Origin: Mobula hypostoma | Lineage: Eukaryota | Assembly: GCF_963921235.1 (NCBI RefSeq) | Contig: NC_086097.1 | Location: forward strand, 47,184,001-47,248,000 | Reading direction: 5' to 3' | DNA length: 64,000 nt | Shown: positions 1 through 64,000 of the stretch, piece after piece | Position numbering within the stretch: the first letter of the stretch is position 1 | How the letters are laid out: every line of letters starts with the position of its first letter | The notes under the pieces: model-generated | Told to the model about the DNA's origin: nothing | Seen by the model: the letters and a program-made list of their open reading frames with translations, nothing else | The model's database searches: none | Translations under genes and position numbers: made by a program

Positions 1-1169
1 GTTCCCTCATTAACTGCAAGTTGTCCAGGCCCTGAGGCAGCAAAGCAGCCCAAAACCATGATGCTCCTTCTACCATGCTTCACAGTTGGGATGAGGTTTT
101 GGTGTTGGTATGCAGTGCCCTTTTCCCTCCAAACTTAGCGGTGTGTATTTCTGCCAAAAAGTTCAACTTTTGTCTCATCTGTCCGGAGAACATTGTCCCA
201 GAAGCATTGTGAAGCATCCAGGTGGTCTTTTGCAAATGTAAGACATGCAGCAATGTTTTGTTTTTGGAGAGCAGTGGTTTCCTCCATGGTGTCCTTCCAT
301 GATCACCATTCTTGTTCAGTGTTTTCCTTATAGTAGGCACATGAACAGACAACAAATTCTAGAGATTTCTGCAGGTCTTTTGCCATTACTCTTGGGTTCT
401 TTTCACCTCCTTCAGCATTGGATGTTGCATTCTTGGTGTGATCTTTGCAAGACACCCGCTCCTAGGAACAGTAGCAACAGTACTGAGTTTCCTCTATTTG
501 TAGCCAATTTCTCTTACTGTGGACACTCAGGTCTTTAGGAATGTTTTTGGAGCCTTTCCCAGCTTCATGTGTCTTTAAACAACTTCTTTCAAGGTCCTCT
601 AAAAGTTGTTTTGGTCAAGGCATGGTGCATATAAACAGATCTTTCTTGAGAAGAGCAGGCTCTGTCAGTAAGCTGACTTTGTTTGTCTTTTTCATAGGGC
701 AGGCCACCTCTATAACCCACATCTATATACCTCCCATCTCATCTCATTAATAAGAACACCTGACTCCGAATAGCTTTTGTAGAAGGCATTAGTTAAGTCA
801 AGTCAAGTCACTTTTTATTGTCATTTTGACCATAACTGCTGGTACAGTACACAGTAAAAATGAGACAATGTTTTTCAGGACCATGGTGCTACATGAACAA
901 TACAAAAACTACACTGAACTACGTAAAAAAACAACACAAATCTGCACTAGACTACAGACCTACCCAGCACTTCATTGAACTTAGACTGTGATTGTTTAAA
1001 TGGTGTACTCAGTATTGACAAGGAGTACAATTGCTTGTGTGTTATTAGTTTAGGCAGATTGTTTTTGTCTATTACTGTGACTTAGATGAAGATCAGACCA
1101 TATTTAATGAGTAATTAATGCAGAAAACCAGGTAATTGTGAAGTGTTTACAAACTTTTTCTTGCAACTG
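1..1169 (-). mobile_element. Tc1/mariner DNA transposon, 5' part, degenerate (runs off the window edge)
   Basis: Minus-strand ORF 80-355 has the Tc1 transposase motif TIRKTLNKNG.HGR.PWRKPLLSK. The terminus at 1169 reads TA|CAGTTGCAAGAAAAAGTTTG on the minus strand (Tc1-type TIR with TA target). A LINE tail interrupts it at about 792-975. Confidence 0.85.
792..975 (-). mobile_element. LINE 3' tail fragment with (AAGTC)n terminal repeat, inserted in the Tc1 copy
   Basis: AGTTAAGTCAAGTCAAGTCA followed by TTTATTG (AATAAA on minus), then 3'UTR-like sequence. Confidence 0.55.
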
Positions 1170-1845
1170 TATATTCAAGAAGCAGAATTATAATTTAATT
1201 TCTCTATTGTTGGTACCTGTTCCTTGAGCTTTTCATGCCCTAGGCTTTGCAATTCTATTTCTTAAACCTCAGCGCCCCTTTATCTCATTTTTGCCTATTA
1301 ATTCAAAATCCTCGTTTGTCCAATCTTTTGGTTGTTTATCTTATTGTTACCCTTAAGTGAGCTGGTGTCAATTTTTTGGTTAGGTGACACTCCTGACAGT
1401 ACCTTGGAACAGTTTGCTATATTAAGTGACTTTGTTGCCTTCTCGCTATTAACATTTGGAAAAGAAATACAGTTAAAAGTATTTCCTTCAAATTATTTTA
1501 TTTTGAAACTAATCTCCAGCTAAGTGAATTTTCCAATTACAACATTTAAATGGAGTATTAATTATGAGCTCACGCAGTTCTACTGCATTAAAATATTAAA
1601 ACAATTTTTCCTAAAACTCTGTCATGTTAATGAAAAAGGTGACATTTTAATATGGAAGCCCCAGACTGTGTATAGCGATTAATTAATTTTTAATGACATA
1701 ATATCAGGAGAGGTTCCATAATCCAGTGTGAATTACAAAATAGATTCTTTGAAAACAAGAGCTCTGCTTTGTCATCATTTCCAAAAGATTCCAAGCCTTG
1801 CATTTGAATTATAAAATTGCAAATGTTATTATTCACTAAGAAAAG

Positions 1846-2464
1846 AAGATGGCGGCGCAACGCAGCGCGCGGCCGTTCCGAATGATATCGTATCTGTGAA
1901 GTAGGATGCCTTGCACAATCCGGATTTGATGGAGGCAGACATGAAGAAGCACGGAGGAACATCTGGAGTAACTTCTGAAATGCCTGCTTCACTGCCGCTG
2001 CTACTGTGCAATCGAGAATCTCCGGAGGGGAAGGCCCTAAGACCTCAACCTTGCCTATTGCCTGTTGCCGGGGCCGGGGTCAAAACACTCAGCAGAGATG
2101 GTGCTCGGTGCTCGATGACGGAGAGCTGGTCAGAGGCTCGGAGTTGGGCTGTGGTTGGATGCTTCCGGGATGCTGCATCGGCAAGTTTGCGGCGCTGGAA
2201 GTTTACTGTCTGTGTGAGATGATGGGACTTTCGAGAGCCTTCAAGACTGTACCGTGCCCATGGTCTGTTCTTATGAAATTACTGTATTGCTTTGCACTGT
2301 TGTAACTATATGTTATAGTTATGTGGTTTTCATCAGTTTTTCAGTCTTGGTTTGTCATGTGTTTCTGTGATATCATTCTGGAGGAACATTGTATCATTTC
2401 TTAATGCATGCATTACTAAATGACAAAAGAGGACTGCGTGTCCTCATAATCTAATCTAATCTAA
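1846..2464 (+). mobile_element. Non-autonomous LINE-derived retroposon, about 620 bp, copy 1
   Basis: Starts AAGATGGCGG (YY1-like), has a CpG-rich 5' half and ends in (AATCT)n. It is colinear with a second copy at 14193-14851 on the minus strand. Confidence 0.75.
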
Positions 2465-3705
2465 AAAATGATAATCTTGAAATTATAGAAATCGTAGTTT
2501 GATACAAATTGTGAAGAAAGTATTGGATTCAATCTTCAAACCAATTATGAGCTTGCCAAAAGAAAGTCAATATTAATGGCACTATATCAGGAGGCATCTT
2601 ACGTAATATGGCAGCAGGAAGTTGCAGAGCTAAATTAAGTATGGAAGCAAGCTGTTATATGACTGTTGTCGGGAAATGTGAAGTCAAATCAGAAAATTTT
2701 CTGAATGCCAAGGCATAGGTTGCACAAACTTATATTTCTTTGAATTTAAACCTTTGTGTTAAATCTAGTTGAGACAGAAAAGACTTCAGATGCTGGAGTA
2801 CAAAGCAAAAAAAAACAAACTGTTAGAAAAGAGTTGCTCTGCCTTCAGAGGTGGTGCCTGACCTACTTAGATCTAGTGGAGTTGTTCAAAAATAGAAAGA
2901 TTCTTTTAGGCTATCAATGTGTTCTTGCATCCATCTACAAGACCTAGATTCTACCACTAGTTAGCACAATGGTATCAATTTTACTTTGTGATAGCAGGAT
3001 TTGTAACTTCTTGCTCGCGTAAGATATCTATAATGGGACTTTGTTTTAAAATTAGCATCAGACCACTGACATAAGTGTTTTTTCATGCAAAGGAGAGTAG
3101 AAATATGGGACATTTCTGTTAAAGGGCTGTGAATGCTAGGCCATTTACAGTATGAACAAGACCAATGTAACTCTCGGGTAAATACTTAAAAGGGTTTGGA
3201 CAAGGCAGGGTAATGGAGTTAAAGTCACCCATGGTTTAATTGTGAGATGGAAAACCCCTTCAAGAAAGAGGTTGGAAAGGTTTCTGGCTGGATTGGAAAT
3301 CATTTCATACAAGGGACACTAACACATAATATAAATCAAGGTTGATGTAAATCTCTTGGAGTAATTTAAATGCCCCATTGTAGCTTATGATAAATCTTCA
3401 GGCTTTTAATCTAATTGACCTGTGCGACTGTGCATGGTTACGAGCATGGAATACTGGTTATGATTCATTAAACTTCACAACTCCAGGTGACAGATTAAGT
3501 TGTCCATGGAATCATATGAGGCATTGGATTGAGAATAGCTCCTATCTCTCGGTTTTCTTAATACTAAATGGAGCATTTGTATGCAAGGCATTACTTTAAA
3601 CTTCCTTCCTTGAAGATTCATTATTCTTCGTGGATTTAAAGCTGGAGAAGAGGAAGACGGTAATGATAAGGGGGAGTAGGGAGGCAGAACAATCTTTCTG
3701 ATGGA

Positions 3706-4151
3706 CTATAATAATGTGGGTGAAACTGGGAGTTGTGGTAAGGCAAGGGTTAAAAACACCGGCCAGGCGAGGATGACTGCGTGGTGTGTATCAATCAGAT
3801 AAGCAAGACTGGAGCCACCCTAGTTTACTACAGACGAGATAGGCAAGGGTGACTGCCTACTTATTCAACTAGAAGAATGGGGCCTCTGAAGTGAGAACTT
3901 TTCTAGAAAGATCCTTGAAGATGTAGTTTCCCTTTAGACGAGAGGGAATACCAAAGAGAAATGAGGTGGGAATAATGGAAGAATGTGAATCACACATAAC
4001 AACTAAGTGACAATTGCTTTACCAACTTCAAAGTGTATTCGGTTGTCTGCTTGTAGTCTCTATTGACCTTTAATACTTCAATTGTGAATGAGATTGATCT
4101 TGCAAGTAAAGGAACTCATACATAGTTTACCAGTTGGTCAATATCATAACA
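3706..4151 (+). mobile_element. Possible old solo LTR
   Basis: Compositionally distinct block ending ...AGTAAAGG...CATAACA. No convincing TSD found. Confidence 0.25.
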
Positions 4152-4394
4152 GATAGGCCAATTCTGTATAAAAATGTCAGTTTTCTGTCCAGGCTTCAGA
4201 ACAAGTGTGGTGACGGGCCACATTGTTCTCGTTGTGCACAAGTAAAATGAACTGTGATTCAGTCATCAGTTTGCCTGTGTTCTGGGTCCAGTTACTTTAT
4301 TATCGGTGATGACAAGACTGCATAGAAATATGATGCCACTCTATGATTCACCATCCTTGATCTTATCTGCTGTATCACGCCTTGAAAGGGAGAA

Positions 4395-4534
4395 TAAACT
4401 GTGTGAATCCCTGCAGCATCTGGTGACCCTGTGATCTCTGTCTTAGAAGCTGACCATCTTTTAAGAGGGTGAACCCTCACAAGACATCAGGCCCTGATGG
4501 TGTACCTGGTATGACTCTGAAAACCTGTGCCAAC
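4395..4534 (+). mobile_element. Rex1/Babar-like LINE RT fragment, left part (host of the LTR insertion)
   Basis: Encodes ..KTSGPDGVPGMTLKTCAN, which continues after the LTR element at 8322 as Q..FKDIFNLSL. Confidence 0.75.
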
Positions 4535-4732
4535 TGTTGTGTATGTGGCCGGGTTACACAACAAAGCTATAAATAAAAACGCTGGAGATGGGAGCTAAGT
4601 TAACCGGGTTCTTGACTGACTGAAACCGAACTGAACACACACGCACAGATCAATATGCGCCTAATAGTGCATGCAATGATGTGTCCCTACAACATAAAGT
4701 AGTCCCATATGATACAGTAGCTATACAGTACA
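4535..4732 (-). repeat. 3' LTR (198 bp) of the cargo-carrying element
   Basis: TGTACTGTATAG...CACAACA on minus, preceded by PPT AAAAGGGGGAGGAG. Aligns with 8141-8316. Confidence 0.9.
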
Positions 4733-5777
4733 CTCCTCCCCTTTTATTTTAATAGTGTATCAACTTTTTTTTACTGGGGCACTACGCTAAACAAATATGT
4801 TTACCCTTTACATACAAATGCCTACCAATTGTTTACTTAGTAATTTAATAATATCAAATTACAAATTAATGTAATAATATCAAATTATAACAAGCCTTTT
4901 TTTTACTTTTGGTCTAAGACCCATTTATAACTCAAGTCCCTGGGGGGACTCTGCCCACTATGCTGTACTTCTCTAGATGATTATGTACCAGCGGTAACAG
5001 AAGAAATCAGTGAAGCTGTAGCAAAATTAGTCATATTGCTCAAGAGGCGTGATGCATTTTTCGTAGCTTTGGTTTCCATGGTCTGCTTCAAAGATGACTT
5101 GCCGCCAATAAAAGAAATGGTTGGTGATCTGCCGTCTCTGCTAGTTATTCAAAAGTCGGGGCAATCCAAAGACTCACAGAAAGAACAGTACTTTACCAGT
5201 AATCTTTCACCGTTTGATGAAGCAGTTGATCGAAATCCTGTTGTTCATTCCGCTGTTCTTAAACTGCAGTTAAAGTACAGTGTTGCTGATATTAAGGATG
5301 ACCTGCAGTGCTATCTGTCTGGCCCAAGAGGGAGAGTTCCTTCAGATGCACATTCAGCCACAAGTGTGAAAATACAACAATAGAAACCTATTGTTTTATT
5401 TGTTTTCCTGTCATGGGATGGCTGTGTAAATATGCTGTACTGTATCTGCTCTATGATATGCTGTGCTGCTTTGTAAAATAAGAATAATAATAAAAATTTG
5501 AATTATAAAAACAATAGAAACCTTACAGTTTGTTGCCAGAATTCGCCTCTGTTTTGATGCTGTTTCCCAACCTCTTTGTGCAGAACGAGACACATTGCTG
5601 AGGATTCAAAATATGTACGTGCAAAAGAAACTTCTCTGCAAAGGGTTAAGTGTATGATTCTTAATGGAGGAAATGATTAGTTTGAGATTTACCGTGTGGG
5701 AAAGCTGTTCTGTTTGAATGGAATTGATTTTGTCCAAGAGCTTTTAAGGGATGACCAATTTTCATCGATCTTTTCCA

Positions 5778-6625
5778 AGGAAATTGTTCAGGAGAAGATG
5801 GAGATGCTGGTCTTTTCGGAGATTTATACTAATTGAGAGTTTACAGATCTTCCATTATCTGTTCATCTGTTAACAAGTAATTTAACTGCGCAGGTACAGG
5901 TTTTTGTCTTTTGTCTGTAATTGGAACAGGGTCATTAGGAATCCTCCTTAGTTTCCTTGTTATTATTGGCTTTACCTCCATAGATTCTCCTGTGAGTTCC
6001 ATTGTTAGCATCTCATTCTCAATCATCTTTTTCTTTTTTTCTAACTCAATGTTTTTAATCTTCAAATTCCTTCACTGCTGCTTTCTTCTCTTTAATATAA
6101 TTCCTTTCTCCTTGTTCTGTCTCCAGTTGCAGAAAAAACTCTATTTCATATTCTTTCCTTGTATTGTTGATCTAGTTTCTTCATCCTTTTCTGATACTCC
6201 TGCAAAGTGCCTTCCTGTTACTACCCTTTTGCCTATCACCTGTCCAGCTCTTGGCTCTATCCCTCCCCCTCCTGTCTTCTCCTATCATTTTGCATCTCCC
6301 CCTCCCCCTCCCACTTTCAAATCCCTTACTCACTCTTCCTTCAGTTAGTCCTGACGAAGGGTCTCGGCCTGAAACGTCGACTGTACCTCTTCCTACAGAT
6401 GCTGCCTGGCCTGCTGCGTTCACCAACAACTTTGATGTGTGTTTCCTGTTACTACTGTAGCTGTCTTTTGAGAGATGTCAATTTCTTCTGGTACATCTGC
6501 TCTTTTACTTCCAGGTAGTCTTCATCATCCTGCTTATTAGCAATATCTGTCTCCCTGTCGACGCTGTCCAGTTCCTCGTCGTCATTGTAATAGTCGACAA
6601 TGGGTGAGAGGAGAGCTGTGGACAT
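5778..6625 (-). pseudogene. SUDS3: Processed (intronless) pseudogene of Sin3 HDAC complex subunit SDS3
   Basis: Reads [158 protein letters not shown]. This matches vertebrate SUDS3 as recalled. It has several stops and deletions, one TE insertion, no introns and lacks the C-terminus. Confidence 0.93.
6225..6442 (+). mobile_element. Penelope-like element 3' end fragment inserted in the SUDS3 retrocopy
   Basis: Same sequence as the 3' end of the Penelope element at about 41135-41355. 13-bp TSD TTCCTGTTACTAC at 6212-6224 and 6443-6455. Confidence 0.9.
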
Positions 6626-6649
6626 CTTCCCCACCGAGCTGCCCTCCTT

Positions 6650-7811
6650 CGTTGATACATCTAGTGCCTTGATGGTGTGCCAATCCAACTGGATTTTCCT
6701 GAGCCATTCACATTCCAGCAATGGTGGTCCTCCATTTTTCAGTACCTAGAGGCTCAGTTGCTATGTTTTATCTCCGTAGGTCACTGTCACTTCAATTTTG
6801 CCTTTGGGATGCACTTTCTGTCCTGTGTAGGTTTTTAGTAGAAGTTTCGTTCGTATCAGAGGTATGTGCAAAAACAGTTGTTTGTAGTCGTGTACAGAGA
6901 TCACTGTTAAAGCTGAGCCTGTGTCCAGCTCCATTTTCAGTCTCACACCTGCCACTTGTGGAGTGATCCATATTACTCTTCGATCATCTGTCTCCTTCAT
7001 GCTGTGAAGTTGCAGACAAGACAATTCACTTTTGTCAGATTCATTTTCATCAGAACTGCCTTCTTTCATTTTGTGCACATTGTTGTATTTTCCTTTCTGG
7101 GGTTTCTTGTTTCTCTGTATTTTGACCTTTTTCTGCTGTTTACTAGCTTTGCATACTCTGCCAATGTGGCCCTGTCTGCCACAGTTTCTGCATTCTTTAT
7201 CTTTAAACCAACAGTCATCTGGGTCATGTGACCTATTTCTTTCCTTCATTTCTGTTCAGTGACATATTTGTAGCATATTCCAGAGATTTTTGTTGTATCC
7301 CGGAAGCACCTCGTGTGGCTGTTTCCGTTGATATTGCAATGTTCAGCGCCTTCTCTAATGTAAGGTACCTTTCACACAGAAGCTTCTTCTGTGTGGTTTC
7401 ACAGTGCATGCCACACACTAGCCTGTCCCTCAATGCATCCGATAGACCCGTTCCAAATTGACAATGTTCTGATAATTTGCGCAATTCAGCACAATATTCA
7501 GAAATGCTTTCATTTTTGCTCTGATTCCGATTGTGAAATTTAAATCTTTCAGCAATGCCCAGCGGTTTGGGGTTTAAATGCTGTTGCAGAGTGTCTACTA
7601 TTTGCTTGAACGTTTTGTCAGCTGGCTTTTCAGGGGTTAACAAGCTCCGTAGCAGGCCGTATGTTTTTGCTTCCATAATACTAAGTAAGACGCTGATTTT
7701 CTTTTCATCATTAACATTGTTAGCATCACAATATAACTCCACTTTTTCAATGTAAATTACCCGGTCTTCAATGCTACTATTAACTGCTGTAATGGTTCCA
7801 ATCATCATCAT
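6650..7811 (-). pseudogene. Retrotransposon gag-protease (frameshifted, with stops)
   Basis: ORFs 7233-7811 and 6761-7249. Gag motifs ERFKFH.R.Q...ESISEY.AELR.L..HC.FG..L.DALRDRLVCG, zinc knuckle CRNCGRQGHIGRVC, aspartic protease LDTGSA, and protease end GGPPLL..EWL..I.LDW. Confidence 0.9.
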
Positions 7812-7924
7812 CTTTGTTACGTTAATTTAGCCCTGTTCTCCCTTTTTTTTGATTCACGTGACCTTTTTGCTACCGCCACAAGCGCACTCCATCTAGATGT
7901 TTGTGTCGCTCCTTTTTATCTCCC

Positions 7925-8125
7925 TTCTGGGGCAGGCAGACCCTCAGTCCCTGGGGGTCAGCGCCGGCTGTGGTCTCGGCTGGACATGCTGTGGCTCCGA
8001 CTGTGTCCCTTGGTCTCCCGACGTTCCCGACCCTGACTGTGCTCCCGCTTCCTTTCGGACTCGCGGCCTCGCTCTGCTTCCTTCTCCCGCTCCTTGGCTC
8101 GTTCCTTGTGCTCTTCCTCTGAGTG
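7925..8125 (-). pseudogene. ACIN1: Captured 3' fragment of an Acinus-like mRNA (RS/RD-rich C-terminus, stop codon, start of 3'UTR)
   Basis: 8122 to 7958 reads SEEEHKERAKEREKEAERGRESERKREHSQGRERRETKGHSRSHSMSSRDHSRR*. This resembles the recalled ACIN1 end (..KEREKEAERER...KRREHSRER...[28 protein letters not shown]). The sequence is low complexity, so the call is less certain. Confidence 0.7.
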
Positions 8126-8140
8126 TCGTTATCAGTTAAA

Positions 8141-8316
8141 CTGGAGACGGGAGCTAAGTTAACAGGGTTCTTTACTGACTGAAACCGAACTGAACACAGA
8201 TATACAGATCAATAAGCATCTAGTAGCACATGCTCAATACGTGCCTAATAGCACATGCACCGACATGTCCCTATAACATAAAGTAGTTCCATATTATACA
8301 GTAGCTATACAGCACA
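8141..8316 (-). repeat. 5' LTR of the cargo-carrying element, truncated at its 3' (U5) end
   Basis: Aligns with 4582-4732 with about 19 substitutions in about 150 bp (hand count) plus a ~25-bp internal duplication. It lacks the last ~47 bp present in the other LTR. Confidence 0.88.
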
Positions 8317-8665
8317 CCAACCAATTTGAGGAGCGTTCAAGGACATCTTCAATCTCTCTCTGCTGTAGTCGGAGTTTCCCACCTACTTCGAAAGGGCGAC
8401 TATCATACCAGTACTAAAGAAGAGCGGCTTGAGATGTCTCAATGACTATCACTCAGTGACACTCACATCTGCTGTGAGGAAGTGCTCTGAGAGATTGGTC
8501 ATGGCTAGAATCATATCCTGCCTAAGCAAAGACCTGGACCTGTTGCAATTTGCCCATCACCACGATCGGTTTGTAGTGGATGCAATCTCACTGGCTCTCT
8601 CTACTTGGCCTTGGATCACCTGGACCATAGCAATGCCCACATTAGCCTGCTGTTTATTGATTTCA
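8317..8665 (+). mobile_element. Rex1/Babar-like LINE RT fragment, right part
   Basis: FKDIFNLSL..S..PT.F....IIPV.KK...CLNDY..V.LTS...KC.ERLV....LD.LQFA is a typical Rex1/Babar RT N-terminal region. Confidence 0.8.
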
Positions 8666-10952: not shown

Positions 10953-11442
10953 AGGCCTATGTTGTTTCACTCTCAACATTTTAACCTTGTGCTGGAATAA
11001 TACTGTTCCCCACAAGGGGGTGCCACAAACTGCATTGTTCTTGTTTTCTGACCTTATTGCTGATTTTTTAAAAATCTAAATAGGGAATAACATTACTGTT
11101 TTAAACTTTATTTTCCTCACTGTCTCCCTGACAACCTTAACTAGAGAGGTCATGAAACAGAAATAGGCCATTTGTTCCACAATCTCTGTGCTGACCTATC
11201 CCCTGCTCCCTGCAGAATGTGCCATTCACTGCACCTCTAGGGTCAGACTTTGAATCCAGTTGAAATAAACAATAGGGGTAAAAAAACAAACTTCAAATTG
11301 TCATATATGCAGTAAATTGGTGTTATGGTGTTGGTTCATGGCTTATCATAAACGACTGGAGATGGAATTTATGAAGGGTGCTCTGAATAATCCTATACTT
11401 GTGCTGTTCTTCACCAGGCAGTCCACTTGTGTTACCAATATA

Positions 11443-13172
11443 ATGTTGATTATGGGGAGCAAGGACATGGCAGACCAATTGAATAATTACTTTGGTTCTG
11501 TCTTCACTAAGGAGGACATAAATAATCTTCCGGAAATAGTAGGGGACAGAGGGTCCAGTGAGATGGAGGAACTGAGGGAAATACATGTTAGTAGGGAAAT
11601 GGTGTTAGGTAAATTGAAGCAATTAAAGGCAGATAAATCCCCAGGGCCAGATGGTCTGCATCCCAGAGTGCTTAGCCCAAGAAATAGTGGATGCATTAGT
11701 GATAATTTTTCAAAACTCTTTAGATTCTGGACTAGTTCCTGAGGATTGGAGGGTGGCTAATGTAACCCCACTTTTTAAAAAAGGAGGGAGAGAGAAACCA
11801 GGGAATTATAGACCAGTTGGCCTAACATCAGTGGTGGGGAAACTGCTAGAGTCAGTTATCAAAGATGTGATAACAGCACATTTGGAAAGTGGTGAAATCA
11901 TCGAACAAAGTCAGCATGGATTTGTGAAAGGAAAATCATGTCTGACGAATCTCATAGAATTTTTTGAGGATGTAACTAGTAGAGTGGATAGGGGAGAACC
12001 AGTGGATGTGGTATATTTGGATTTTCAAAAGGTCCCACACAGGAGATTAGTGTGCAAACTTAAAGCACACGGTATTGGGGGTAAGGTATTGATGTGGATA
12101 GAGAATTGGTTGGCAGACAGGAAGCAAAGAGTGGGAATAAATGGGACCTTTTCAGAATGGCAGGCAGTGACTAGTGGGGTACCGCAAGGCTCAGTGCTGG
12201 GACCCCAGTTGTTTACAATATATATTAATGACTTGGATGAGGGAATTAAATGCAGCATCTCCAAGCTTGCGGATGACACGAAGCTGGGTGGCAGTGTTAG
12301 CTTTGAGGAGGATGCTAAGAGGATGCAGGATGACTTGGATAGGTTGGGTGAGTGGGCAAACTCATGGCAGATGCAATTTAATGTGGATAAATGTGAAGTT
12401 ATCCACTTTGGTGGCAAAAACAGGAAAACAGATTATTATCTGAATGGTGGCCGATTAGGAAAAGGGGAGGTGCAACGAGACCTGGGTGTCATTATACACT
12501 AGTCATTGAAAGTGGGCATGCAGGTACAGCAGGTGGTGAAAAAGGCGAATGGTATGCTGGCATTTATAGCAAGAGGATTCGAGTACAGGAGCAGGGAGGT
12601 ACCACTGCAGTTGTACAAAGCCTTGGTGAGACCACACCTGGAGTATTGTGTGCAGTTTTGGTCCCCTAATCTGAGGAAAGACATCCTTGCCATAGAGGGA
12701 GTACAAAGAAGGTTCACCAGATTGATTCCTGGGATGGCAGGACTTTCATATGATGAAAGACTAGATGAACTAGGCTTATACTCGTTGGAATTTAGAAGAT
12801 TGAGGGGGGATCTTATTGAAACGTATAAAATCCTAAAGGGATTGGACAGGCTAGATGCAGGAAGATTGTTCCCGATGTTGGGGGGGGGGTCCAGAACGAG
12901 GGGTCACGGTTTGAGGATAAAGGGGAAGCCTTTTAGGACCGAGATTAGGAAAAACTTCTTCACACAGAGAGTGGTGAATCTGTGGAATTCTCTGCCACAG
13001 GAATCAGTTGAGGCCAGTTCATTGGCTATATTTAAGAGGGAGTTAGATATGGGCCCTGTGGCTAAAGGGATCAGGGGTATGGGGGGGAAGGCTGGTGCAG
13101 GGTTCTGAATGGCGGTGCAGGCTCGAAGGGCCAAATGGCCTACTCCTGCAGCTATTTTCTATGTTTCTATGT
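11443..13172 (+). mobile_element. CR1 LINE, 5'-truncated, disrupted ORF2 (copy 1)
   Basis: RT motifs KSPGPDG, NYRPV.LTS, GVPQGSVLGP and ADDTK. Has a frameshift and a stop. Tail TTTCTATG repeats. Confidence 0.95.
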
Positions 13173-14192: not shown

Positions 14193-14851
14193 ATTAGATT
14201 AGATTAAATTATGAGGACACTCAGTCCTCGTTTATTGTCATTTAGAAATGCATGCATTAAAAATGATACAATGTTCCTCCAGTATGATATCACAGAAACA
14301 CAAGACAGACCAAGACTAAAACTGACAAAAACCACATAATTATAACATATAGTTACAACAGTGCAAAGCAATACTGTAATTTGATAAAAGCAGACCATGG
14401 GCACAGTAAAAAAAATTCCCAAAGTCCCGATAGCCCCAACATCTCACGCAGATGGTAGAAGGGAGAAACTCTCCCTGCCATGAGCTTCCAGCGCCACAAA
14501 CTTGCCGATGCAGCACCCTGGAAGCACCCGGCCACAGTCCGACTCTGAGTCCGTCCGAAAACTTCGAGCCTCAGATACCGAACACCAAGCACCATCTCTG
14601 CCGAATGCTTTGACCCCAGACCCAGCCGCTAAGCAACAAGCAAAGCTGTGGGTTCGGGGCCTTCCCCTCCGGAGATTTCGGATCACACAGTAGCAGCTGC
14701 AGCAAAGCAGGCATTTCAGAAGTTTCCCCAGATGTTCCTCCGTGCTGTCACATCTGCATCCATTAAATCAGAATTGTGCACGGCCTCCTACTTGACAGAT
14801 TACAGATATTCATCACCGGAGAGGCCGCGCATGCTGTGTCGCGCCGCTATT
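14193..14851 (-). mobile_element. Non-autonomous LINE-derived retroposon, copy 2
   Basis: Reverse-complement match to 1846-2464, including the (AATCT)n tail. Confidence 0.75.
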
Positions 14852-14852
14852 A

Positions 14853-15051
14853 CCTCTACCACCTCCACCTCCACCTCCACCTCCACCTCCTCCTCCTCCT
14901 CCTCCTCCTCCTCCTCCTCCTCCACCTCCACCTCCACCTCCACCTCCACCTCCACCTCCACCTCCACCTCCACCTCCACCTCCACCTCCACCACCACCAC
15001 CACCACCACCACCACCACCACCACCACCACCACCACCACCACCACCACCAC
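14853..15051. repeat. Compound microsatellite (CCTCCA)n-(CCT)n-(CCTCCA)n-(CCA)n
   Basis: Directly visible. It explains the homopolymeric ORFs in all frames. Confidence 0.98.
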
Positions 15052-35388: not shown

Positions 35389-36845
35389 TGGCTAATGTAA
35401 CCCCACTTTTTAAAAAAGGAGGGAGAGAGAAACCGGGGAATTATAGGCCGGTTAGCCTAACGTCGGTGGTGGGGAAACTGCTGGAGTCAGTTATCAAGGA
35501 TGTGATAACAGCACATTTGGAAAGCGGTGAAATGATCGGACAAAGTCAGCATGGATTTGTGAAAGGAAAATCATGTCTGACGAATCTCATAGAATTTTTT
35601 GAGGATGTAACTAGTAGAGTGGATAGGGGAGAACCAGTGGATGTGGTATATTTGGATTTTCAAAAGGCTTTTGACAAGGTCCCACACAGGAGATTAGTGT
35701 GCAAACTTAAAGCACACGGTATTGGGGGTAAGGTATTGGTGTGGGTGGAGAATTGGTTAGCAGACAGGAAGCAAAGAGTGGGAATAAACGGGACCTTTTC
35801 AGAATGGCAGGCGGTGACTAGTGGGGTACCGCAAGGCTCAGTGCTGGGACCCCAGTTGTTTACAATATATATTAATGACTTGGATGAGGGAATTAAATGC
35901 AGCATCTCCAAGTTTGCAGATGACACAAAGCTGGGTGGCAGTGTTAGCAGTGAGGAGGATGCTAAGAGGATGCAGGGTGACTTGGATAGGTTGGGTGAGT
36001 GGGCAATCTCATGGCAGATGCAATTTAATGTGGATAAATGTGAAGTTATCCACTTTGGTGGCAAAAATAGGAAAACAGATTATTATCTGAATGGTGGCCG
36101 ATTAGGAAAAGGGGAGGTGCAACGAGACCTGGGTGTCATTATACACCAGTCATTGAAAGTGGGCATGCAGGTACAGCAGGCGGTGAAAAAGGCGAACGGT
36201 ATGCTGGCATTTATAGCGAGAGGATTCGAGTACAGGAGCAGGGAGGTACTACTGCAGTTGTACAAGGCCTTGGTGAGACCACACCTGGAGTATTGTGTGC
36301 AGTTTTGGTCCCCTAATCTGAGGAAAGACATCTTTGCCATAGAGGGAGTACAAAGAAGGTTCACCAGATTGATTCCTGGGATGGCAGGTCTTTCATATGA
36401 AGAAAGACTGGATGAACTGGGCTTGTACTCGTTGGAATTTAGAAGATTGAGGGGGGATCTGATTGAAACATATAAGATCCTAAAGGGATTGGACAGGCTA
36501 GATGCGGGAAGATTGTTCCCGATGTTGGGGAGGTCTAGAACGAGGGGTCACAGTTTGAGGATAGAGGGGAAGCCTTTTAGGACCGAGGTTAGGAAAAACT
36601 TCTTCACACAGAGAGTGGTGAATCTGTGGAATTCTCTGCCACAGCAAACTGTTGAGGCCAGTTCATTAGCTATGTTTAAAAGGAAGTTAGATATGGCCCT
36701 TGTGGCTACAGGGGTCAGGGGGTATGGAGGGAAGGCTGGGTTCTGAGTTGGATGATCAGCCATGATCATAATAAATGGCGGTGCAGGCTCGAAGGGCCGA
36801 ATGGCCTACTCCTGCACCTATTTTCTATGTTTCTATGTTTCTATG
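35389..36845 (+). mobile_element. CR1 LINE, 5'-truncated, young, with uninterrupted RT/C-terminal ORF (copy 2)
   Basis: 452-aa ORF 35388-36746 with LDFQKAFD, GVPQGS and FADD. Tail (TTTCTATG)3. Imperfect TSD TGATATC(T)AAGGAA. Confidence 0.96.
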
Positions 36846-39142
36846 AAATGATATCAAGGAAAATTAAAGAATTTCATATTGTGCAAACTACAAAAATGAC
36901 AAATATTTATAGGAACGGAATATCAGTGAGGGCGAGAGTTCCAAAGCAGAGTCGGAGATAAGTAAATAAAACTGCTGTGAACTGCTCTTCTTTCTGTAAT
37001 AGTCTCCATTTAAATCCGATTAAAACAGTACAATGTTCTATTCCAGAATAAAGGGCACTTATCCTCAGCAGTGAGCAGTTAACCAAAGCAACTCCTGCAG
37101 TGTGAATTTTTCTAACAAGAAGCCTTGGAGAGCAAGTAGGTGAAGCCAGTGTGAACAATAGAGAATTGGGCTGACATCACGTTCATACCACGAAAGTATA
37201 TGGAACTCGAAAATGTATTCAGGCAAAAAAATTGAAGACTTTAGGCCAGGCGAAACATTAGTTACATCACAAGTGTAGTAGCTGATTATACTAATCTATC
37301 ATCATCAAAGGCCAAAGATTGGCTCAGAAAGGTAAAGCTAGACTAGGAAAATGCGTCCAGCGTGTGTGCTACAAAATGGCATTTACACTTACAGTTAGAA
37401 AGGTCTGCAGAACTGCTCACAAACCTTACACTTTATCCATATGACCCAAGGCCGACCTAATGTACACCTTAGGTCTCAGTGTAAGCATTGAAGGTCCAAA
37501 GAAAGAGTTAGATAAATCTGAGTGACTGGGCAACACCAACTGTGGCAATGCCAAACGTGGACATTCCTGTTTGACACTGGACCAAGAGGTTGATGGTGAG
37601 CACCGTCTATTGCCTACTTTGTAGGACTTGCGTATAGAGCTGGCATGAGCCCAAGATTTCACCAAACTAGAACTTCCCAATGTAGCTATTTTCTGCTCAG
37701 CTGAATATAGATTTTTTAAAAAGAGTGAAAAATATGTGGCTATTAATAAATTTCAGAAAATGTACACTAATATAAAACTACTTTATGATATGAAATTATT
37801 ATCAGAGATATTTTCAATCAAAAAAGAGAAGGTACTACAAGATATAGAATGCTATCTATATAATCAAGATAATATAGCCATATGCACCAAAGAAAATCTT
37901 CAAACGTTCAAAGTTTTCCAATGGCAAGAGAAGCACAATAGAAAATTCTAAAGAAGTATGTACTTTCATATAGAATGTGGTTAGCCCTGGATTTATAAAT
38001 GCAAAGGTATTGCAACCAGTTAAAGAAAAAGTGGAAGCAATTGCTAAGAGAGGAAATGACGACTTAGATCATTTTATGGTGCAATCCAGACTGTTGCTGC
38101 ATCTTCCATCTGTGGTGATGCCATTATGAGTTATTAAAGACAACAAAAAGAACTGGGGCAAAGAACAAAAAAATTATTTTGACTTGTACAATAGAAAAAT
38201 AGGAAGTGATTTGGTAATTTAGTACAAGCATGCTGAAACTAGTTCTGTATTATTGAGATGTTCTAAATAGTTTGCCTGACTGCCATAAAAAAAATCAAAC
38301 ACATTCACAAAGAGTGTTAGAAATGCTCAAAGTGAGAAAGAGGCATCAGGACTTATCTTTGAAGTTAAAATAAACATCAACATACCTGCTTTGGGCTGAG
38401 GAGGGGAGAAAAGGATCAGCCATGAATGAATGGCGGAACAGACTCGATGGGCCAAATGGCCTAATTCTGCTCCTATGTCTTATGGTCTTAAGTCACAAAC
38501 CGTAATTCTTTTGTTAACAATCTTTGGTGCAAAGTCAGCAGTGCCAATAATGATTGCATTGAGAATACAAAGGTGCACTCTTCTCTTAGCTCAGTATGGT
38601 GCACAATCAAGTCTACAACAAAATTCCAGTTCAGGTGTGTTGTAGGAGGTTTTAAACGAGAATTCAGTCGCAGGAGGTACAGTAAATCTTCATGTTGAAA
38701 GAAGCAGAGGATGGACTTTCTGTTTACAGCAACAGGAGAGAGCCAGGGAGGCACAAAGATACTATTTCCAAAAGAGTATGCAGGAAAGTTTGGAAAGTAC
38801 GGACAGTAGTTCAGACGAAGTTGAAGAATGTAGTACAGTATCCACAGAATGTAGTATCCATGACGAAATGAGGTGTTGAAGAACAAGATTGTGTTAAGTT
38901 GGGACACTGATTGCATAACATCTCAATAGATAAATCAAGATGACAATTTTTTGAAATGTTTCGCTAAAGTTCAATCAGAAGTTTTATTGCCTGCAATTGG
39001 GCAAAGATTTTAAATCATTAATCAATTAGAGTACTAAGCAGCATTGACATCTTTACAAACCCGGAAATGGCCAACGGGTCTTTTCATAAGTGCACATATC
39101 AATTGTTGTGAGGAGGGATACTGATAATTTCTTAATAGAAAA

Positions 39143-49999: not shown

Positions 50000-51343
50000 T
50001 GGAGTCAGTTATCAAGGATGTGATAACAGCACATTTGGAAAGCGGTGAAATGATCGGACAAAGTCAGCATGGATTTGTGAAAGGAAAATCATGTCTGACG
50101 AATCTCATAGAATTTTTTGAGGATGTAACTAGTAGAGTGGATAGGGGAGAACCAGTGGATGTGGTATATTTGGATTTTCAAAAGGTCCCACACAGGAGAT
50201 TAGTGTGCAAATTTAAAGCACACGGTATTGGGGGTAAGGTATTGGTGTGGGTGGAGAATTGGTTAGCAGACAGGAAGCAAAGAGTGGGAATAAACGGGAC
50301 CTTTTCAGAATGGCAGGCGGTGACTAGTGGGGTACCGCAAGGCTCAGTGCTGGGGCCCCAGTTGTTTACAATATATATTAATGACTTGGATGAGGGAATT
50401 AAATGCAGCATCTCTAAGTTTGCGGATGACACGAAGCTGGGTGGCAGTGTTAGCAGTGAGGAGGATGCTAAGAGGATGCAGGGTGACTTGGATAGGTTGG
50501 GTGAGTGGGCAAACTCATGGCAGATGCAATTTAATGTGGATAAATGTGAAGTTATCCACTTTGGTGGCAAAAATAGGAAAACAGATTATTATCTGAATGG
50601 TGGCCGATTAGGAAAAGGGGAGGTGCAACGAGACCTGGGTGTCATTATACACCAGTCATTGAAAGTGGGCATGCAGGTACAGCAGGCGGTGAAAAAGGCG
50701 AACGGTATGCTGGCATTTATAGCGAGAGGATTCGAGTACAGGAGCAGGGAGGTACTACTGCAGTTGTACAAGGCCTTGGTGAGACCACACCTGGAGTATT
50801 GTGTGCAGTTTTGGTCCCCTAATCTGAGGAAAGACATCTTTGCCATAGAGGGAGTACAAAGAAGGTTCACCAGATTGATTCCTGGGATGGCAGGTCTTTC
50901 ATATGAAGAAAGACTGGATGAACTGGGCTTGTACTCGTTGGAATTTAGAAGATTGAGGGGGGATCTGATTGAAACGTATAAGATCCTAAAGGGATTGGAC
51001 AGGCTAGATGCGGGAAGATTGTTCCCGATGTTGGGGAGGTCCAGAACGAGGGGTCACAGTTTGAAGATAGAGGGGAAGCCTTTTAGGACCGAGATTAGGA
51101 AAAACTTCTTCACACAGAGAGTGGTGAATCTGTGGAATTCTCTGCCACAGCAAACTGTTGAGGCCAGTTCATTGGCTATGTTTTAAGAGGGAGTTGGATA
51201 TGGCCCTTGTGGCTACAGGGGTCAGGGGGTATGGAGGGAAGGCTGGATTCTGAGTTGGATGATCAGCCATGATCATAATGAATGGCGGTGCAGGCTCGAA
51301 GGGCCGAATGGCCTACTCCTGCACCTATTTTCTATGTTTCTAT
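50000..51343 (+). mobile_element. CR1 LINE, 5'-truncated (copy 3), antisense inside ckb intron 4
   Basis: 395-aa RT ORF nearly identical to copy 2, with a TTTCTATG tail. Confidence 0.96.
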
Positions 51344-52894
51344 ATATAAAAGAATATCAAGGAACTCCAGTTTCAGGTAGTGCCAGAGCACCTCTTCAAG
51401 CACCTCAAGAAATATTTTTAAATTATGCAACCAGTCCATGATCCCACTACTGGGACTCAGATGTGGGCCATTTGTATTATTAGGTTAGCTACCTGTAATT
51501 ATAGGTTCAGTCTGAGCATCTCTTGGTGGCCAGAAAAGTAACCAAAATAAAAAACTCATCTCAAAACACCAAAATGGCAATAGTCAGGTTAGGGTGGAGT
51601 TTGGACCAGAATTCCTGGTGTATACTGGGATGCACCATGTGGGTTTTAACAATGCACATTGGAGATGCTGTTTTGAGGAATTTTACTGTCTGATGCACTG
51701 TGAGGCTTAAACATTCTGAAATATATTATTCTTGTTAACTTTTGCCAGAGTCATAATTTGGGGAAAAACTGTTACATTTCCCCTAGACCTTAAAGTTGAA
51801 GTGTCTCAAGCAGAAGATAAGTGAAGATTACAAGTTGGTCTTGTAAAATCCTTTCTTGCCAAAATAGCACATTTAAAAATGCCAAAATATACATAGTTTT
51901 GAAAGACAGTATAATGAGAAACTAAGATGTAGTGAGATATCATCCCCTCAAAGCTTTCCGCACAACTTGATTTTATAATCTGAAACATATGGTCCAGAAA
52001 TTTTCCTGAAGTTCTACAATTAGTCCCTCCTCCCATGAGCTACAGTAACACGTGGCAGTTTACAGTTAATCCCACAATTGCAATGTTACTGGACACATAC
52101 TTGCAATTCAGAGTGTAAAGTTTTATGGTACTGACTCATTTTCTGGACAAGAGGGAGTACTTGGTGAGAGCCCAAGTCTTCATTTAAAGGCAACATTTCA
52201 GTCTCTCAAAACTAATTTCCTTTCGAACATTAAAACAATATGTAATTGAGATGTACACTTCCTTGCTCAGTCTTAAAAATGAAACCCCATTAGTTTGTAT
52301 ACAAAATTGGAGCCAGTAGCTGATATTTTAAACACTACAGAATTTGACAAGAGGTCACAAGTTAACAGAATAGAAGTATTCATTTCCATAAATGGTTCAA
52401 CTATGCAAGTTACTTTCCACAGACAAATGGAAATAGCATTACCAGTAAAGCTGAAACACTAGATTAGCTTGAAGCTTGTGGGTTTTGTTTAGGGAAATGA
52501 AATAACTTAGTTCCCATTTCAGGCAAGAAACACCTCGTGTTCAGAGATGAGTCAGTTAACAGGACTTTAGTTTCTTTGGCAGAAATAATCCTTGTGTGGG
52601 GCTGGGAAAAGGGTGCAGTATGGCAATTCAAGAGCTGTCGATTGTTTATGAAGATAACACAATAATGTAAAATCTTCAGGCAAAAGGAAATGTAGAAAAC
52701 AGAATAGACATTACTGTAAATATTCAGTAAGAATACAAACAAGTTGATGTCACAATTCTCTTCTGAATTATCAGTGCTCATTCTCCAGAAGTGTGTGAAA
52801 ACAAGGTCTTGGATTCTGTTTTGAGGAAACTTGATTTTCAAAAACTTTATCAGCTATTTAAAGGTTAAAGCATATTATGCCCTTTTGATCTTAC

Positions 52895-58268: not shown

Positions 58269-60188
58269 TGGTGATTAGAATTTTGTTTGCAGATTTGCAG
58301 GCCTGTGCCAAGGGAAGCAGTATCGTGAAAAAACAAGCTCTTTGACCTGAAATTCTTCTCTTCGTAGGAATTGCCTGACCTGACCATTTGCAGCACATTC
58401 TTTAATTTTTTAAAGCATATAATGTGCCACCTTTATTTTCACACTGTAAGAGCTTAGTATTTTTGTTTAACCTTCCTCCCTTTGATTTGAGTCATCTAAA
58501 ATTAAGTAAATTTTGTCTGTACCCACGTGTATATCATTGAAATGTACATTAAAGATGGCACTGGTTCTAGAACTGACTCTTGGACTACTCTGCTGTGCAC
58601 TTTTCTCCAGTCTTTCACTACTACTTGGGGACAGTAATTCCTCAGTGTAATGAAAGGTGATCTTTGTGCCTTCTTGAGATAGCAGACAAGGTTTTAGTTT
58701 AACCGGTTTCATGGGATGTCATTATAGGTTATGGTCCTTGAGTATTTGGAGTGGGAGTTGAACCCACACCTTCTGATTCGGAAATGAGTGCTCTATCAAG
58801 CTCTTAGTGTTCTGGCGATTCAGTTGTTAGAATTGGCCAACACTCAATTACTTTGTGTGTGAATCAGAACAAGACCTTTTGGTCTCGTGCCAGTGCTGGC
58901 ACTTTTAAGTGAATCGTGTTGCAGAAAATCAAACCTCAATGGCTCTGATTCTGTGAGTTGTGCTTTCAATCATAGAAAAGCAGAGCACACAAGGAACTAA
59001 TGGAGCATCACATTCACACCGGTCAAAAAAAAAATGCTGGCCTAATCTTATTTGGTCTTGGTCTGTGTTACGTACCCCGTAACTGGGTTGCCAAACCAGC
59101 AGAAATGGATCACTCAGTTGGAGTCTGGATTACTAGAACTAAGAAAGTTTTATTAAAGAAACAAGCAACACAGTACTCTAATCAAAAGGATAATGAATGC
59201 AACAGTTCAGCAATGATAAACATACATGTACGCAGAATTCAGATAACAGGATCAATCAAGCTCTATCGTTGTCTAGGGGTAAATGACCAGTTTCAAAGTG
59301 ACGCAAAGTTCAGTTCAATTTAGTTCAGTTCAGTTCGCAGTAATCGCTGCCGTGGGAGATGGACAGTGGGGGGAAGGAGAGAGAGAGCAAAACGAATGAA
59401 TATTCAAAACGGCTTCCACACAGACCTTCGCAGTCAGCTTTCGGGCGAGTCCTTTGTGATGTTATCTGAGGTCACCGACCGTGACCCCTCCGTTTCCAGA
59501 TACGATCGTTTCCCTGCGGTGAACCTGGCACCCAGGCAAGGGTGGACACACACCAGGTTCCCGCCGATCGTGCCTTTCCACCCTGTGCGTCTATGGCCCG
59601 GTACTTCCCACCGACTTGTGAGAGACGCACCGCTTCCAGGGTCTTGTTACCTCGGGTGTCGTGTGTGTCCTGCCTTAGCGAACCTGTCCCTTTTTATCCC
59701 CCTGCTGGGGTATCGCCTGTCCATCACTTCAAACAGTTCAGGGTTCAAAGGGGGAGCTGATCTTGACAGCTCTCCTTCCCCTTGATTAACATCTCCAAAT
59801 GCTGCTCCTCCATTGTTTTCCTTATCTCTCTCTCTCCTGAAGACAGGTGGCAGACCAACTGCTGATTCCACTGGTGCCGGCCCAGGCCAGCTACATCTTA
59901 ATCTATGTGTATTCTTGTCACACTTCCCCCCTTTAAGGATTTTTACCGGGGGTAAAAATTACAAACATGAATACATTATTTGATACACACAAATATACAT
60001 CTTTATCAGGTATTTGGCTAATACAGCGAGTTTGAAGTTGTCAACACCTGACAGACAGTCAGCCATCACATTTCCTGTTCCTTTTATATGTGTTATTAAT
60101 AATCCCTTAGACCAGGCTCCAACTTAGCAAACTTCATAGTAGCCAAAAACACTGATGAATTGCGATCAATGTAACCTCTCATTGGGTT

Positions 60189-62925: not shown

Positions 62926-64000
62926 TTCTGCTGTTTGTCTTTTCTTTCTTTCGGGAATTTTGACCCAATCATTTACTCCGTCCCAAATTTAGCGTTCAAA
63001 AACGCGGACGAGAACCCCACTTATGTTACGTACCCAGTAACTGGGTTGCCAAACCAGCAGAAATGGATCACTCAGTTGGAGTCTGGATTACTAGAACTAA
63101 GAAAGTTTTATTAAAGAAACAAGCAACACAGTACTCTAATCAAAAGGATAATGAATGCAACAGTTCAGCAATGATAAACATACATGTACACAGAATTCAG
63201 ATAACAGGATCAATCAAGCTCTATCATTGTCTAGGGGTAAATGACCAGTTTCAAAGTGACGCAAAGTTCAGTTCAATTTAGTTCAGTTCAGTTCGCAGTA
63301 ATCGCTGCCGTGGGAGATGGACAGTGTGGGGGAAGGAGAGAGAGAGCAAAACGAATGAATATTCAAGGCTTCCACACAGACCTTTGCAGTCAGCTTTCGG
63401 GCGAGTCCTTTGTGATGTCATCTGAGGTCACCGACCGTGACCCCTCCGTTTCCAGATACGATCGTTTCCCTGCGGTGAACCTGGCACCCAGGCAAGGGTG
63501 GACACACACCAGGTTCCCGCCGATCGTGCCTTTCCACCCTGTGCGTCTATGGCCCAGTACTTCTCACCGACTTGTGAGAGACGCACCGCTTCCAGGGTCT
63601 TGTTACCTCGGGTGTCGTGTGTGTCCTGCCTTAGCGAACCTGTCCCTTTTTATCCCCCTGCTGGGGTATCGCCTGTCCATCACTTCAAACAGTTCAGGGT
63701 TCAAAGGGGGAGCCGATCTTGACAGCTCTCCTTCCCCTTGATTAACATCTCCAAATGCTGCTCCTCCATTGTTTTCCTTATCTCTCTCTCTCCTGAAGAC
63801 AGGTGGCAGACCAACTGCTGATTCCACTGGTGCCGGCCCAGGCCAGCTACATCTTAATCTATGTGTATTCTTGTCACAGTCTGAAACCTTCTATCTTGCA
63901 CTCTGTCAAGTGCATATCCAGTGACTTTTCAAATATGTTGAATTTTTCTGCCTTCTCCATCCTTGACACATGATGTCTGTGACACATGGAGCCAATGCAG

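What the first reader, a model, noticed from the sequence alone, without database searches (positions are those of the whole stretch)
7920..8140. Second cargo in the same element: ACIN1-like mRNA 3' end replaces the U5 end and primer-binding site
Seen in sequence: the 5' LTR stops at ..CTCCAG, about 47 bp short of the other LTR. It is followed by ~220 bp of GC-rich sequence encoding an RS/RD-rich peptide plus stop and UTR, and then the gag leader. No TGG-type PBS remains. The peptide resembles the Acinus C-terminus (from memory). Inference: this was an extra template jump at the point where minus-strand synthesis reaches the PBS and must transfer, giving at least two different cellular mRNAs in one integration. 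Acinus binds SAP18 (established), which was first described as Sin3-associated, so both cargoes touch the Sin3 network; this may be coincidence.
Basis: partly seen in the sequence, partly recalled or inferred. Interest (0 to 1): 0.72.

Follow-up and report, generated by a model that had tools for sequence, protein, structure and literature searches.

The report
ACIN1 fragment riding a Gypsy family
A 192-base piece from the end of the host gene ACIN1 sits in the front end of a defective jumping gene in a ray genome and was copied many times along with it, so it is an old family passenger and not a one-off accident that destroyed this copy's priming site.

Summary
The ACIN1 call is right; the proposed mechanism is not. 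Bases 8119-7928 (minus strand) are the last 53 codons, the stop and 30 nt of 3'UTR of ray ACIN1. The peptide matches 45 of 56 residues ungapped up to the same stop. Contigs of two RNA-type runs leave the window at 7928 with the same further UTR. But the block is a family trait. In two DNA runs it is covered as deeply as the leader and LTR, by 85 and 76 contigs at one site, and copies about 10-14% diverged join it to the gag leader. The 47-bp U5 loss is real but separate: this element's 3' LTR and 35 contigs keep that end. The 21 nt between LTR and ACIN1 (8140-8120) also occur in other copies and hold a weak PBS-like word. So ACIN1 lies between the PBS position and gag; it replaced neither. The element also carries SUDS3 and an antisense RNF213 piece. 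The block lacks the SAP18-binding motif, so the Sin3 link looks like coincidence. This is LTR-mediated gene capture with later amplification, a known kind; the leader position and the scale are unusual.

The parts
8317..8321 (.). 5-bp target-site duplication, copy beside the 5' LTR; the host sequence is a LINE reverse-transcriptase remnant (LINE identity recalled)
8141..8316 (-). 5' LTR, lacking the last 47 bp of U5 and holding 25 extra bp (a tandem duplication by eye); 18 mismatches in 151 aligned columns to the 3' LTR (K2P 0.13)
8120..8140 (-). 21-nt linker between LTR and ACIN1 block; also present in other copies; the expected place of the primer-binding site
   Evidence: table 8: X1 record 6 ungapped 7934-8140, X1 record 8 to 8141, X5 record 32 to 8130
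8125..8134 (-). decayed PBS-like word, 6-7 of 10 letters alike to the PBS word of four related Gypsy elements (weak)
7958..8119 (-). ACIN1 cargo, coding part: last 53 codons plus stop; 47 of 53 residues identical to Mobula ACIN1 with one 4-residue gap; no start codon upstream in frame
7928..7957 (-). ACIN1 cargo, first 30 nt of 3'UTR; no poly(A)
   Evidence: table 7 (X16 and X18 loose ends at 7928)
7812..7927 (-). rest of the element's leader up to the first gag ATG (7811)
   Evidence: joined to the ACIN1 block in other copies
6638..7811 (-). Ty3/Gypsy gag, zinc knuckle and protease of the K02A2.6-like group, broken by a frameshift near 7236 and stops near 6750-6760; 65% and 56% identical to fish polyprotein P0063
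5790..6637 (-). SUDS3 cargo in place of RT-RNase H-integrase, in frame with the protease; split by a SINE-like repeat (6442-6225, 13-bp duplication); ends near 5790
   Evidence: (PDB SDS3, E 4e-8); join at 6638 from the X1 loose end
4937..5795 (+). third cargo: RNF213 coding fragment, antisense to the element, collinear with about 290 residues of RNF213; ends approximate
   Evidence: (E 1e-26)
4733..4750 (-). polypurine tract
4535..4732 (-). 3' LTR, complete (198 bp, TG..CA); alike to the LTR of autonomous relative L001 (0 of 1000 shuffles reach the score)
4530..4534 (.). 5-bp target-site duplication, copy beside the 3' LTR

Best explanation
An ancestor of this Gypsy family took up 192 nt from the 3' end of the host ACIN1 transcript into its 5' leader, between the primer-binding site and gag. 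Most likely reverse transcriptase switched onto a co-packaged ACIN1 mRNA 30 nt past the stop, copied 192 nt and switched back just before the PBS (inferred). Because LTR, PBS and the rest of the leader survived, the chimera stayed mobile in trans and multiplied with the block aboard (shared block and junction shown; mobilisation by autonomous relatives inferred). SUDS3 and RNF213 are further captures in the same lineage; their order relative to ACIN1 is not shown. The 47-bp U5 loss is a separate lesion of this copy, made during its own reverse transcription or after insertion: U5 of both new LTRs is copied from the parent's 5' U5, and this copy's 3' LTR is complete (established retroviral mechanism, recalled). 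The block is untranslated passenger sequence here and is decaying.
For: Identity and ends of the block. Family trait (means): summed DNA depth over the block is 9,986 (X1) and 29,223 (X5), against leader 5,803 and 15,160, LTR 4,461 and 15,676, gag-protease 21,729 and 56,177. At 8008, 85 and 76 contigs read one letter other than the window's (99% of depth), the same letter as the RNA contigs. Of the 10 listed records that overlap the block, 5 bridge the 7928 junction with 31 or more letters on each side (X1 record 4; X5 30 and 31; X16 16; X18 24), and they differ from the window at 18-29 letters. Three records run from the block into the linker. The U5 end is present as a loose end at 8141 in 16 (X1), 19 (X5) and 3 (X18) contigs. 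Seven X1 contigs leave at 6638 into letters that, read by hand, continue like the polyprotein of P0061, so pol-bearing relatives exist. Decay: 4 of 6 residue differences (CAC, CAG, CAC, ATG opposite R, R, R, T) are what CpG transitions would give (host codons not seen). Sense orientation, no poly(A) and no duplication around the block fit template switching (PMC5131818, section 5).
Against: No whole second copy was seen: no genome is held, and Logan contigs are short. Only 32 of 9,140 records and 24 of 687 loose ends were shown. The tool warns that summed depth is no copy number and that 'RNA' is a guess. No listed record meets the 31-letter rule at the 8119 junction (21, 22 and 11 letters). 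No exon junction was shown inside the block, so RNA origin is not proven. Junction microsimilarity could not be scored without the parent leader. The PBS match is weak. The runs may not be from the window's species: at 6569 and 6650 all X1 depth differs from the window.
Confidence: 0.76

Rival explanations
1. One reading: in this one integration the minus strand jumped to ACIN1 mRNA at the PBS and then onto plus strong-stop DNA inside U5, so ACIN1 replaced the U5 end and the PBS.
For: The 47-bp gap and the ACIN1 block are only 21 nt apart; no TGG follows the LTR stump; outer ends and the target-site duplication are intact.
Against: The block and its leader junction occur in many diverged copies; ACIN1 identity stops at 8119, not 8140; the 21-nt linker is in other copies; the U5 end is kept in 35 DNA contigs. 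A PBS-less product could not have founded a family.
Confidence: 0.04
2. The block entered the founder at DNA level (break repair or gene conversion from the last ACIN1 exon, or a cDNA patch after integration) and was then amplified with the family.
For: No exon junction is shown in the block; that it lies within the last exon is my recollection from mammalian ACIN1. The RNF213 cargo is antisense, which simple minus-strand switching does not explain.
Against: The block is in sense orientation inside a retroelement that took up at least two other host coding pieces; RNF213 is collinear with about 290 residues in about 860 bp. Template switching is the documented route for such chimeras (PMC5131818).
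Confidence: 0.12
3. The high depth over the block is mostly spurious: purine-rich simple sequence laid at 80% likeness, or an independent ACIN1-derived repeat, and only a few element copies carry it.
For: The block is 68% purine in its coding part; depth there exceeds that of the flanking leader by 1.7-1.9 times; a protein search for short products of other copies found nothing.
Against: 99% of depth agrees on one letter at 8008 and 98-99% at 8078; long records of 175-215 aligned letters fit with 10-16% differences; several bridge into the leader.
Confidence: 0.06

Closest known systems
LTR-mediated retrocopies of animals (Tan et al. 2016, PMC5131818; 12 passages and section 5 read)
   Same: Partial host transcripts inside an LTR element; no poly(A) or duplication around the cargo; several parent genes in one element (a Pao BATUMI two-gene chimera; a 'Super' retrocopy with four genes and an Alu); further rounds of retroposition as a non-autonomous element.
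   Different: In the 15 Drosophila cases the cargo replaced part of the internal ORFs; here the ACIN1 piece sits in the leader upstream of an untouched gag start. Two of their retrocopies had more than one insertion site, whereas this block shows dozens of distinct contigs per run in two organisms. Microsimilarity was not testable here.
Maize Bs1 (three cellular genes inside an LTR element; seen only as cited in PMC5131818)
   Same: Pieces of three unlinked host genes in one LTR element.
   Different: Bs1 is described as a hybrid ORF; the ACIN1 block has no start codon, lies outside the gag-protease-SUDS3 frame, and RNF213 is antisense.
Ty3/Gypsy elements annotated 'K02A2.6-like' (Mag group by recollection), e.g. 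P0063 and L001
   Same: Gag and protease 65% and 56% identical to P0063; LTR about 190-200 bp, alike to L001; same type of PPT; PBS a few nt behind the LTR in L001, L003 and L004.
   Different: RT, RNase H and integrase are absent; the leader holds the ACIN1 block. L001's leader has no clear match to the block (14 of 1000 shuffles reach the score; 48 of 200 against all of L001), but it does not align with the window's own leader either (425 of 1000).
SUDS3 as a top retrocopy parent in cartilaginous fishes (bioRxiv 10.64898/2026.06.26.734816; 8 passages read, supplements closed)
   Same: Notes SUDS3 among the five leading parents of retrocopies in this lineage.
   Different: It ties retrocopy counts to non-LTR elements and expression bias; its main text never names ACIN1 or RNF213. 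An LTR carrier family would be another explanation.

Membership tests
ACIN1-derived sequence | Protein match to the ACIN1 C-terminus ending at the same stop | tested here: met
   45 of 56 ungapped, shuffles at most 24; E 1.9e-8
ACIN1-derived sequence | Nucleotide match continuing into the 3'UTR | tested here: met
   X16 and X18 contigs fit to 7928, 30 nt past the stop, with the same loose end; the X16 loose end at 8119, translated by hand, gives the ten residues that precede the block in P0004
LTR-mediated retrocopy | Cargo flanked by parts of one LTR element with both outer ends and a target-site duplication | tested here: met
LTR-mediated retrocopy | No poly(A) and no duplication around the cargo itself | tested here: met
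   read from the sequence at 7928 and 8119
LTR-mediated retrocopy | Loss of introns (RNA origin) | not testable with these tools
   no ray ACIN1 gene sequence held; the block may lie in one exon
LTR-mediated retrocopy | Microsimilarity between mRNA and element at the switch points | not testable with these tools
   no block-free parental leader was seen; L001's leader does not align
LTR-mediated retrocopy | Cargo replaces part of the internal ORFs (all 15 Drosophila cases) | tested here: not met
   the ACIN1 block ends 116 nt upstream of the gag ATG; met only by the SUDS3 cargo
Amplified non-autonomous LTR family | Many diverged copies share the cargo and its junction | tested here: met
   tables 2, 3, 8
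Amplified non-autonomous LTR family | PBS kept between LTR and cargo | tested here: inconclusive
   the linker is shared with other copies, but this copy's word matches relatives at only 6-7 of 10 letters; the letters of other copies were not shown
Ty3/Gypsy, K02A2.6-like group | Gag, zinc knuckle and aspartic protease homology | tested here: met
   the Pfam hits are all below curated cut-offs
Ty3/Gypsy, K02A2.6-like group | RT-RNase H-integrase order and RT phylogeny | not testable with these tools
   these domains are absent from this copy
Functional Acinus module (SAP18/RNPS1 binding) | RSB motif present and translatable | tested here: not met
   RSB at 370-464 of P0004, block at 480-536; two stops and no ATG just upstream

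The most novel reading that the evidence does not exclude
The ACIN1 piece was the first capture, perhaps already in the pol-bearing parent, and was kept because it works in cis on the element's RNA: a purine-rich host exon sequence next to the PBS that recruits SR-type or export factors or aids packaging. It would be a host-derived regulatory module that made this lineage an efficient, serial collector of host mRNAs. Not excluded: block depth is about equal to SUDS3 depth and above leader depth, and no loose end for a block-free leader was among the 12 DNA rows shown (663 rows hidden).
Probability: 0.12. Interest if true: 0.75.

Novelty: new variant of a known kind. Interest (0 to 1): 0.42.

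Why it matters
It shows that an LTR element can take host mRNA into the leader that holds its priming and packaging signals and still amplify widely, in more than one organism (A and B here). With SUDS3 and RNF213 it makes a three-gene chimera whose many copies could order and date successive captures. Such copies can also inflate retrocopy counts credited to LINEs in cartilaginous fishes. There is a dating clue. Almost no DNA depth at 8085 carries the 12-nt repeat unit that Hypanus and Mobula ACIN1 both have (X1: one contig, depth 9.9 of 5,378; X5: none), while the X16 RNA contig has it. So the capture either predates that duplication or the founder lost the unit; the aligner may also split such contigs. 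The more dramatic claim, a strand-transfer accident caught in one integration, does not hold.

Tried and rejected
No whole genome is held, so copies could not be counted directly. No second family copy lies in the window. An LTR pattern found nothing in metagenome contigs, and gag found nothing in viral contigs. A search for 30-98-residue products of other copies found no candidate. Pfam has no family for the peptide. The LTR-to-gag leader folds no better than shuffles (z 0.99), so no structural role is shown. The run search listed no holder on record as RNA; this says nothing on expression. Alignment of the window leader to L001's leader, meant to map what the block replaced, was not significant. 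Splicing as the cause of the 47-bp loss was rejected: the lost stretch lacks GT..AG ends on either strand (read). The Sin3/SAP18 link was rejected (RSB motif absent). The second LTR element at 59066-63878 is another family. Literature: searches listed no paper on this family or on ACIN1 in an LTR element (ACIN1 occurs 0 times in the 17 papers). The library lacks most subscription journals and repeat databases, and the bioRxiv supplements, which may list ACIN1 retrocopies, were closed. Earlier scan notes held no ACIN1 or Acinus finding.

Full report
Setting. The finding lies in a 3,782-bp LTR element on the minus strand (8316-4535) with TG..CA ends, a polypurine tract and a 5-bp target-site duplication. 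The two LTRs differ at 18 of 151 aligned columns (K2P 0.13), so the copy is old. Its gag and protease are 65% and 56% identical to a fish 'K02A2.6-like' Gypsy polyprotein. RT, RNase H and integrase are missing. In their place lie SUDS3 (PDB SDS3 hits, best E 4e-8) and, antisense, about 860 bp of RNF213 coding sequence (E 1e-26; collinear over about 290 residues when read with X at stops). No genome was held. The host is a ray by inference from the closest ACIN1 proteins.

Observation. The 5' LTR does stop at CTCCAG, 47 bp short of the 3' LTR. The following 221 bp are 62% GC against 40-42% around them. The 56-residue frame (8128-7961) hit Hypanus sabinus ACIN1b at E 1.9e-8, one of 2 hits among 37 candidates; its cluster of 5 holds Hypanus and Mobula ACIN1. 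Laid ungapped from the stop codon, 45 of 56 residues match, and 2000 shuffles reached at most 24. With one 4-residue gap, 47 of 53 match.

Ends of the ACIN1 piece. I laid four runs on 6500-8345 at 80% likeness: X1 and X5 (DNA, organisms A and B) and X16 and X18 (RNA by the tool's guess). In both RNA-type runs a contig fits down to 7928 and leaves with the same 30 letters, which is further 3'UTR by inference. An X16 contig leaves at 8119; translated by hand, its loose end gives the ten residues that precede the block in P0004. X16 also shows 12 extra nt at 8085, the 4-residue unit the window lacks. RNA depth over the block is 7 and 38 times that over the leader, as expected if the host transcript adds to it. 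So the cargo is 8119-7928: 162 nt of coding end and 30 nt of UTR.

The block is a family trait. In the DNA runs, mean summed depth over the block is 9,986 and 29,223, against 5,803 and 15,160 for the leader, 4,461 and 15,676 for the LTR, 9,680 and 20,530 for the SUDS3 start, and 21,729 and 56,177 for gag-protease. The tool warns this is no copy number; I use it only as a like-for-like order of size. At 8008, 85 and 76 contigs carry one letter other than the window's, 99% of the depth, and the RNA contigs agree with them. Of 32 records shown (9,108 hidden), 10 overlap the block. Five of these bridge the block-leader junction with 31 or more letters on each side, and a sixth misses by one letter. 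They differ from the window at 18-29 letters, so they are other copies; X1 alone shows five different records over 7954-8077. Earlier AI notes on this genome describe the same SUDS3 family as multi-copy, some with RNF213 or RPS8; these are leads only, and none of the notes shown names ACIN1.

The U5 loss and the PBS. Loose ends at 8141 in 16, 19 and 3 contigs (X1, X5, X18) read like the U5 end of this element's 3' LTR. By the established scheme of LTR reverse transcription (recalled), both new LTRs take U5 from the parent's 5' end. A complete 3' LTR therefore means the parent RNA had a complete U5, and the loss arose in this copy, during its synthesis or later. The 21 nt from 8140 to 8120 are not ACIN1. 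X1 record 6 runs ungapped from 7934 to 8140, and two more records enter the linker. None can meet the 31-letter rule, because this copy has only 21 such letters before its gap. Four metagenome relatives (L001-L004, of 8 loci) show a PBS word, 1-3 nt behind the LTR end in the three where that end is read. The window's 8134-8125 matches it at 6, 6, 6 and 7 of 10 letters. That is weak alone (0.12-0.16% of positions reach 7 of 10), but it is the right place, and a family that multiplied must have kept a priming site.

Mechanism. Shown: identity and ends of the block, its sharing among copies, its place between linker and gag, and the separate U5 loss. Inferred: capture by two template switches onto a co-packaged ACIN1 mRNA in an ancestor, then spread in trans. 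Seven X1 contigs leave at 6638 into letters that read on like the P0061 polyprotein, so pol-bearing relatives exist (read by hand). Not shown: RNA origin by intron loss, junction microsimilarity, the order of captures, and whether pol-bearing copies also hold the block. The block has two stops and no ATG just upstream, lacks the RSB motif that binds SAP18 and RNPS1 (370-464 of P0004 against 480-536), and the leader folds no better than shuffles. I read it as a decaying passenger, and the Sin3 link as coincidence.

Against my reading. I saw no whole second copy. The tables were cut to the best rows. The runs may not be the window's species, since at 6569 and 6650 all X1 depth differs from the window. 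L001's leader aligns neither to the block nor to the window's leader, so what the block replaced, if anything, is unknown.

Comparison and novelty. Tan et al. 2016 (PMC5131818; 12 passages and section 5 read) describe partial, multi-gene retrocopies inside LTR elements and secondary retroposition, and cite maize Bs1. It works like those. It differs in that all 15 of their Drosophila cargoes replaced ORF sequence while this one sits in the leader, and in its apparent scale. A 2026 preprint (8 passages read; supplements closed) lists SUDS3 among the top retrocopy parents in cartilaginous fishes without naming ACIN1 or RNF213. Searches listed nothing on this family; searches were seen as listings and abstract starts only. 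Verdict: real, correctly named, wrongly explained; a new variant of a known kind; interest 0.42.

Noticed in passing
window 4937-5795 (+): RNF213 coding fragment, antisense, inside the same element: a third host cargo. The middle (about 5320-5500) aligns poorly.
   Followed up: partly
window 6637-6625 (-): SUDS3 joins in frame to the protease through 12 nt ahead of its ATG, so the ancestor could have made a Gag-protease-SUDS3 fusion; pol-type contigs diverge at 6638.
   Followed up: partly
window 6442-6225 (-): SINE-like repeat inserted into the SUDS3 cargo with a 13-bp duplication; several more copies lie in the window.
   Followed up: partly
window 8085: Element copies lack a 12-nt unit that Hypanus and Mobula ACIN1 have twice; unnamed protein P0003 has it once. 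A possible clock for the capture.
   Followed up: partly
window about 8242-8218 (-): 25 extra bp in the 5' LTR, a tandem duplication by eye, absent from the 3' LTR.
   Followed up: no
window 59066-63878 (-): A young, different Gypsy element: LTRs about 99% alike, 5-bp duplication, SCAN domain and zinc knuckle in gag, and a pol region with no Pfam hit that looks internally deleted.
   Followed up: no
window 11400-13170, 35400-36850, 50000-51350 (+): Three copies of one LINE-like repeat, mostly 95-97% alike over 300-nt blocks, with long ORFs; CR1 type by recollection.
   Followed up: no
window 14847-15050: Compound CCT/CCA microsatellite of about 200 bp.
   Followed up: no
L001 1-4586: Circularly assembled autonomous Gypsy (one LTR, PBS, full ORF; best segment 80% identical to P0063) in a metagenome; its LTR is detectably alike to the window's.
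   Followed up: partly
one search run list: Words of the element occur in runs of 8 coded organisms (shares 0.07-0.45); only A and B were laid.
   Followed up: partly
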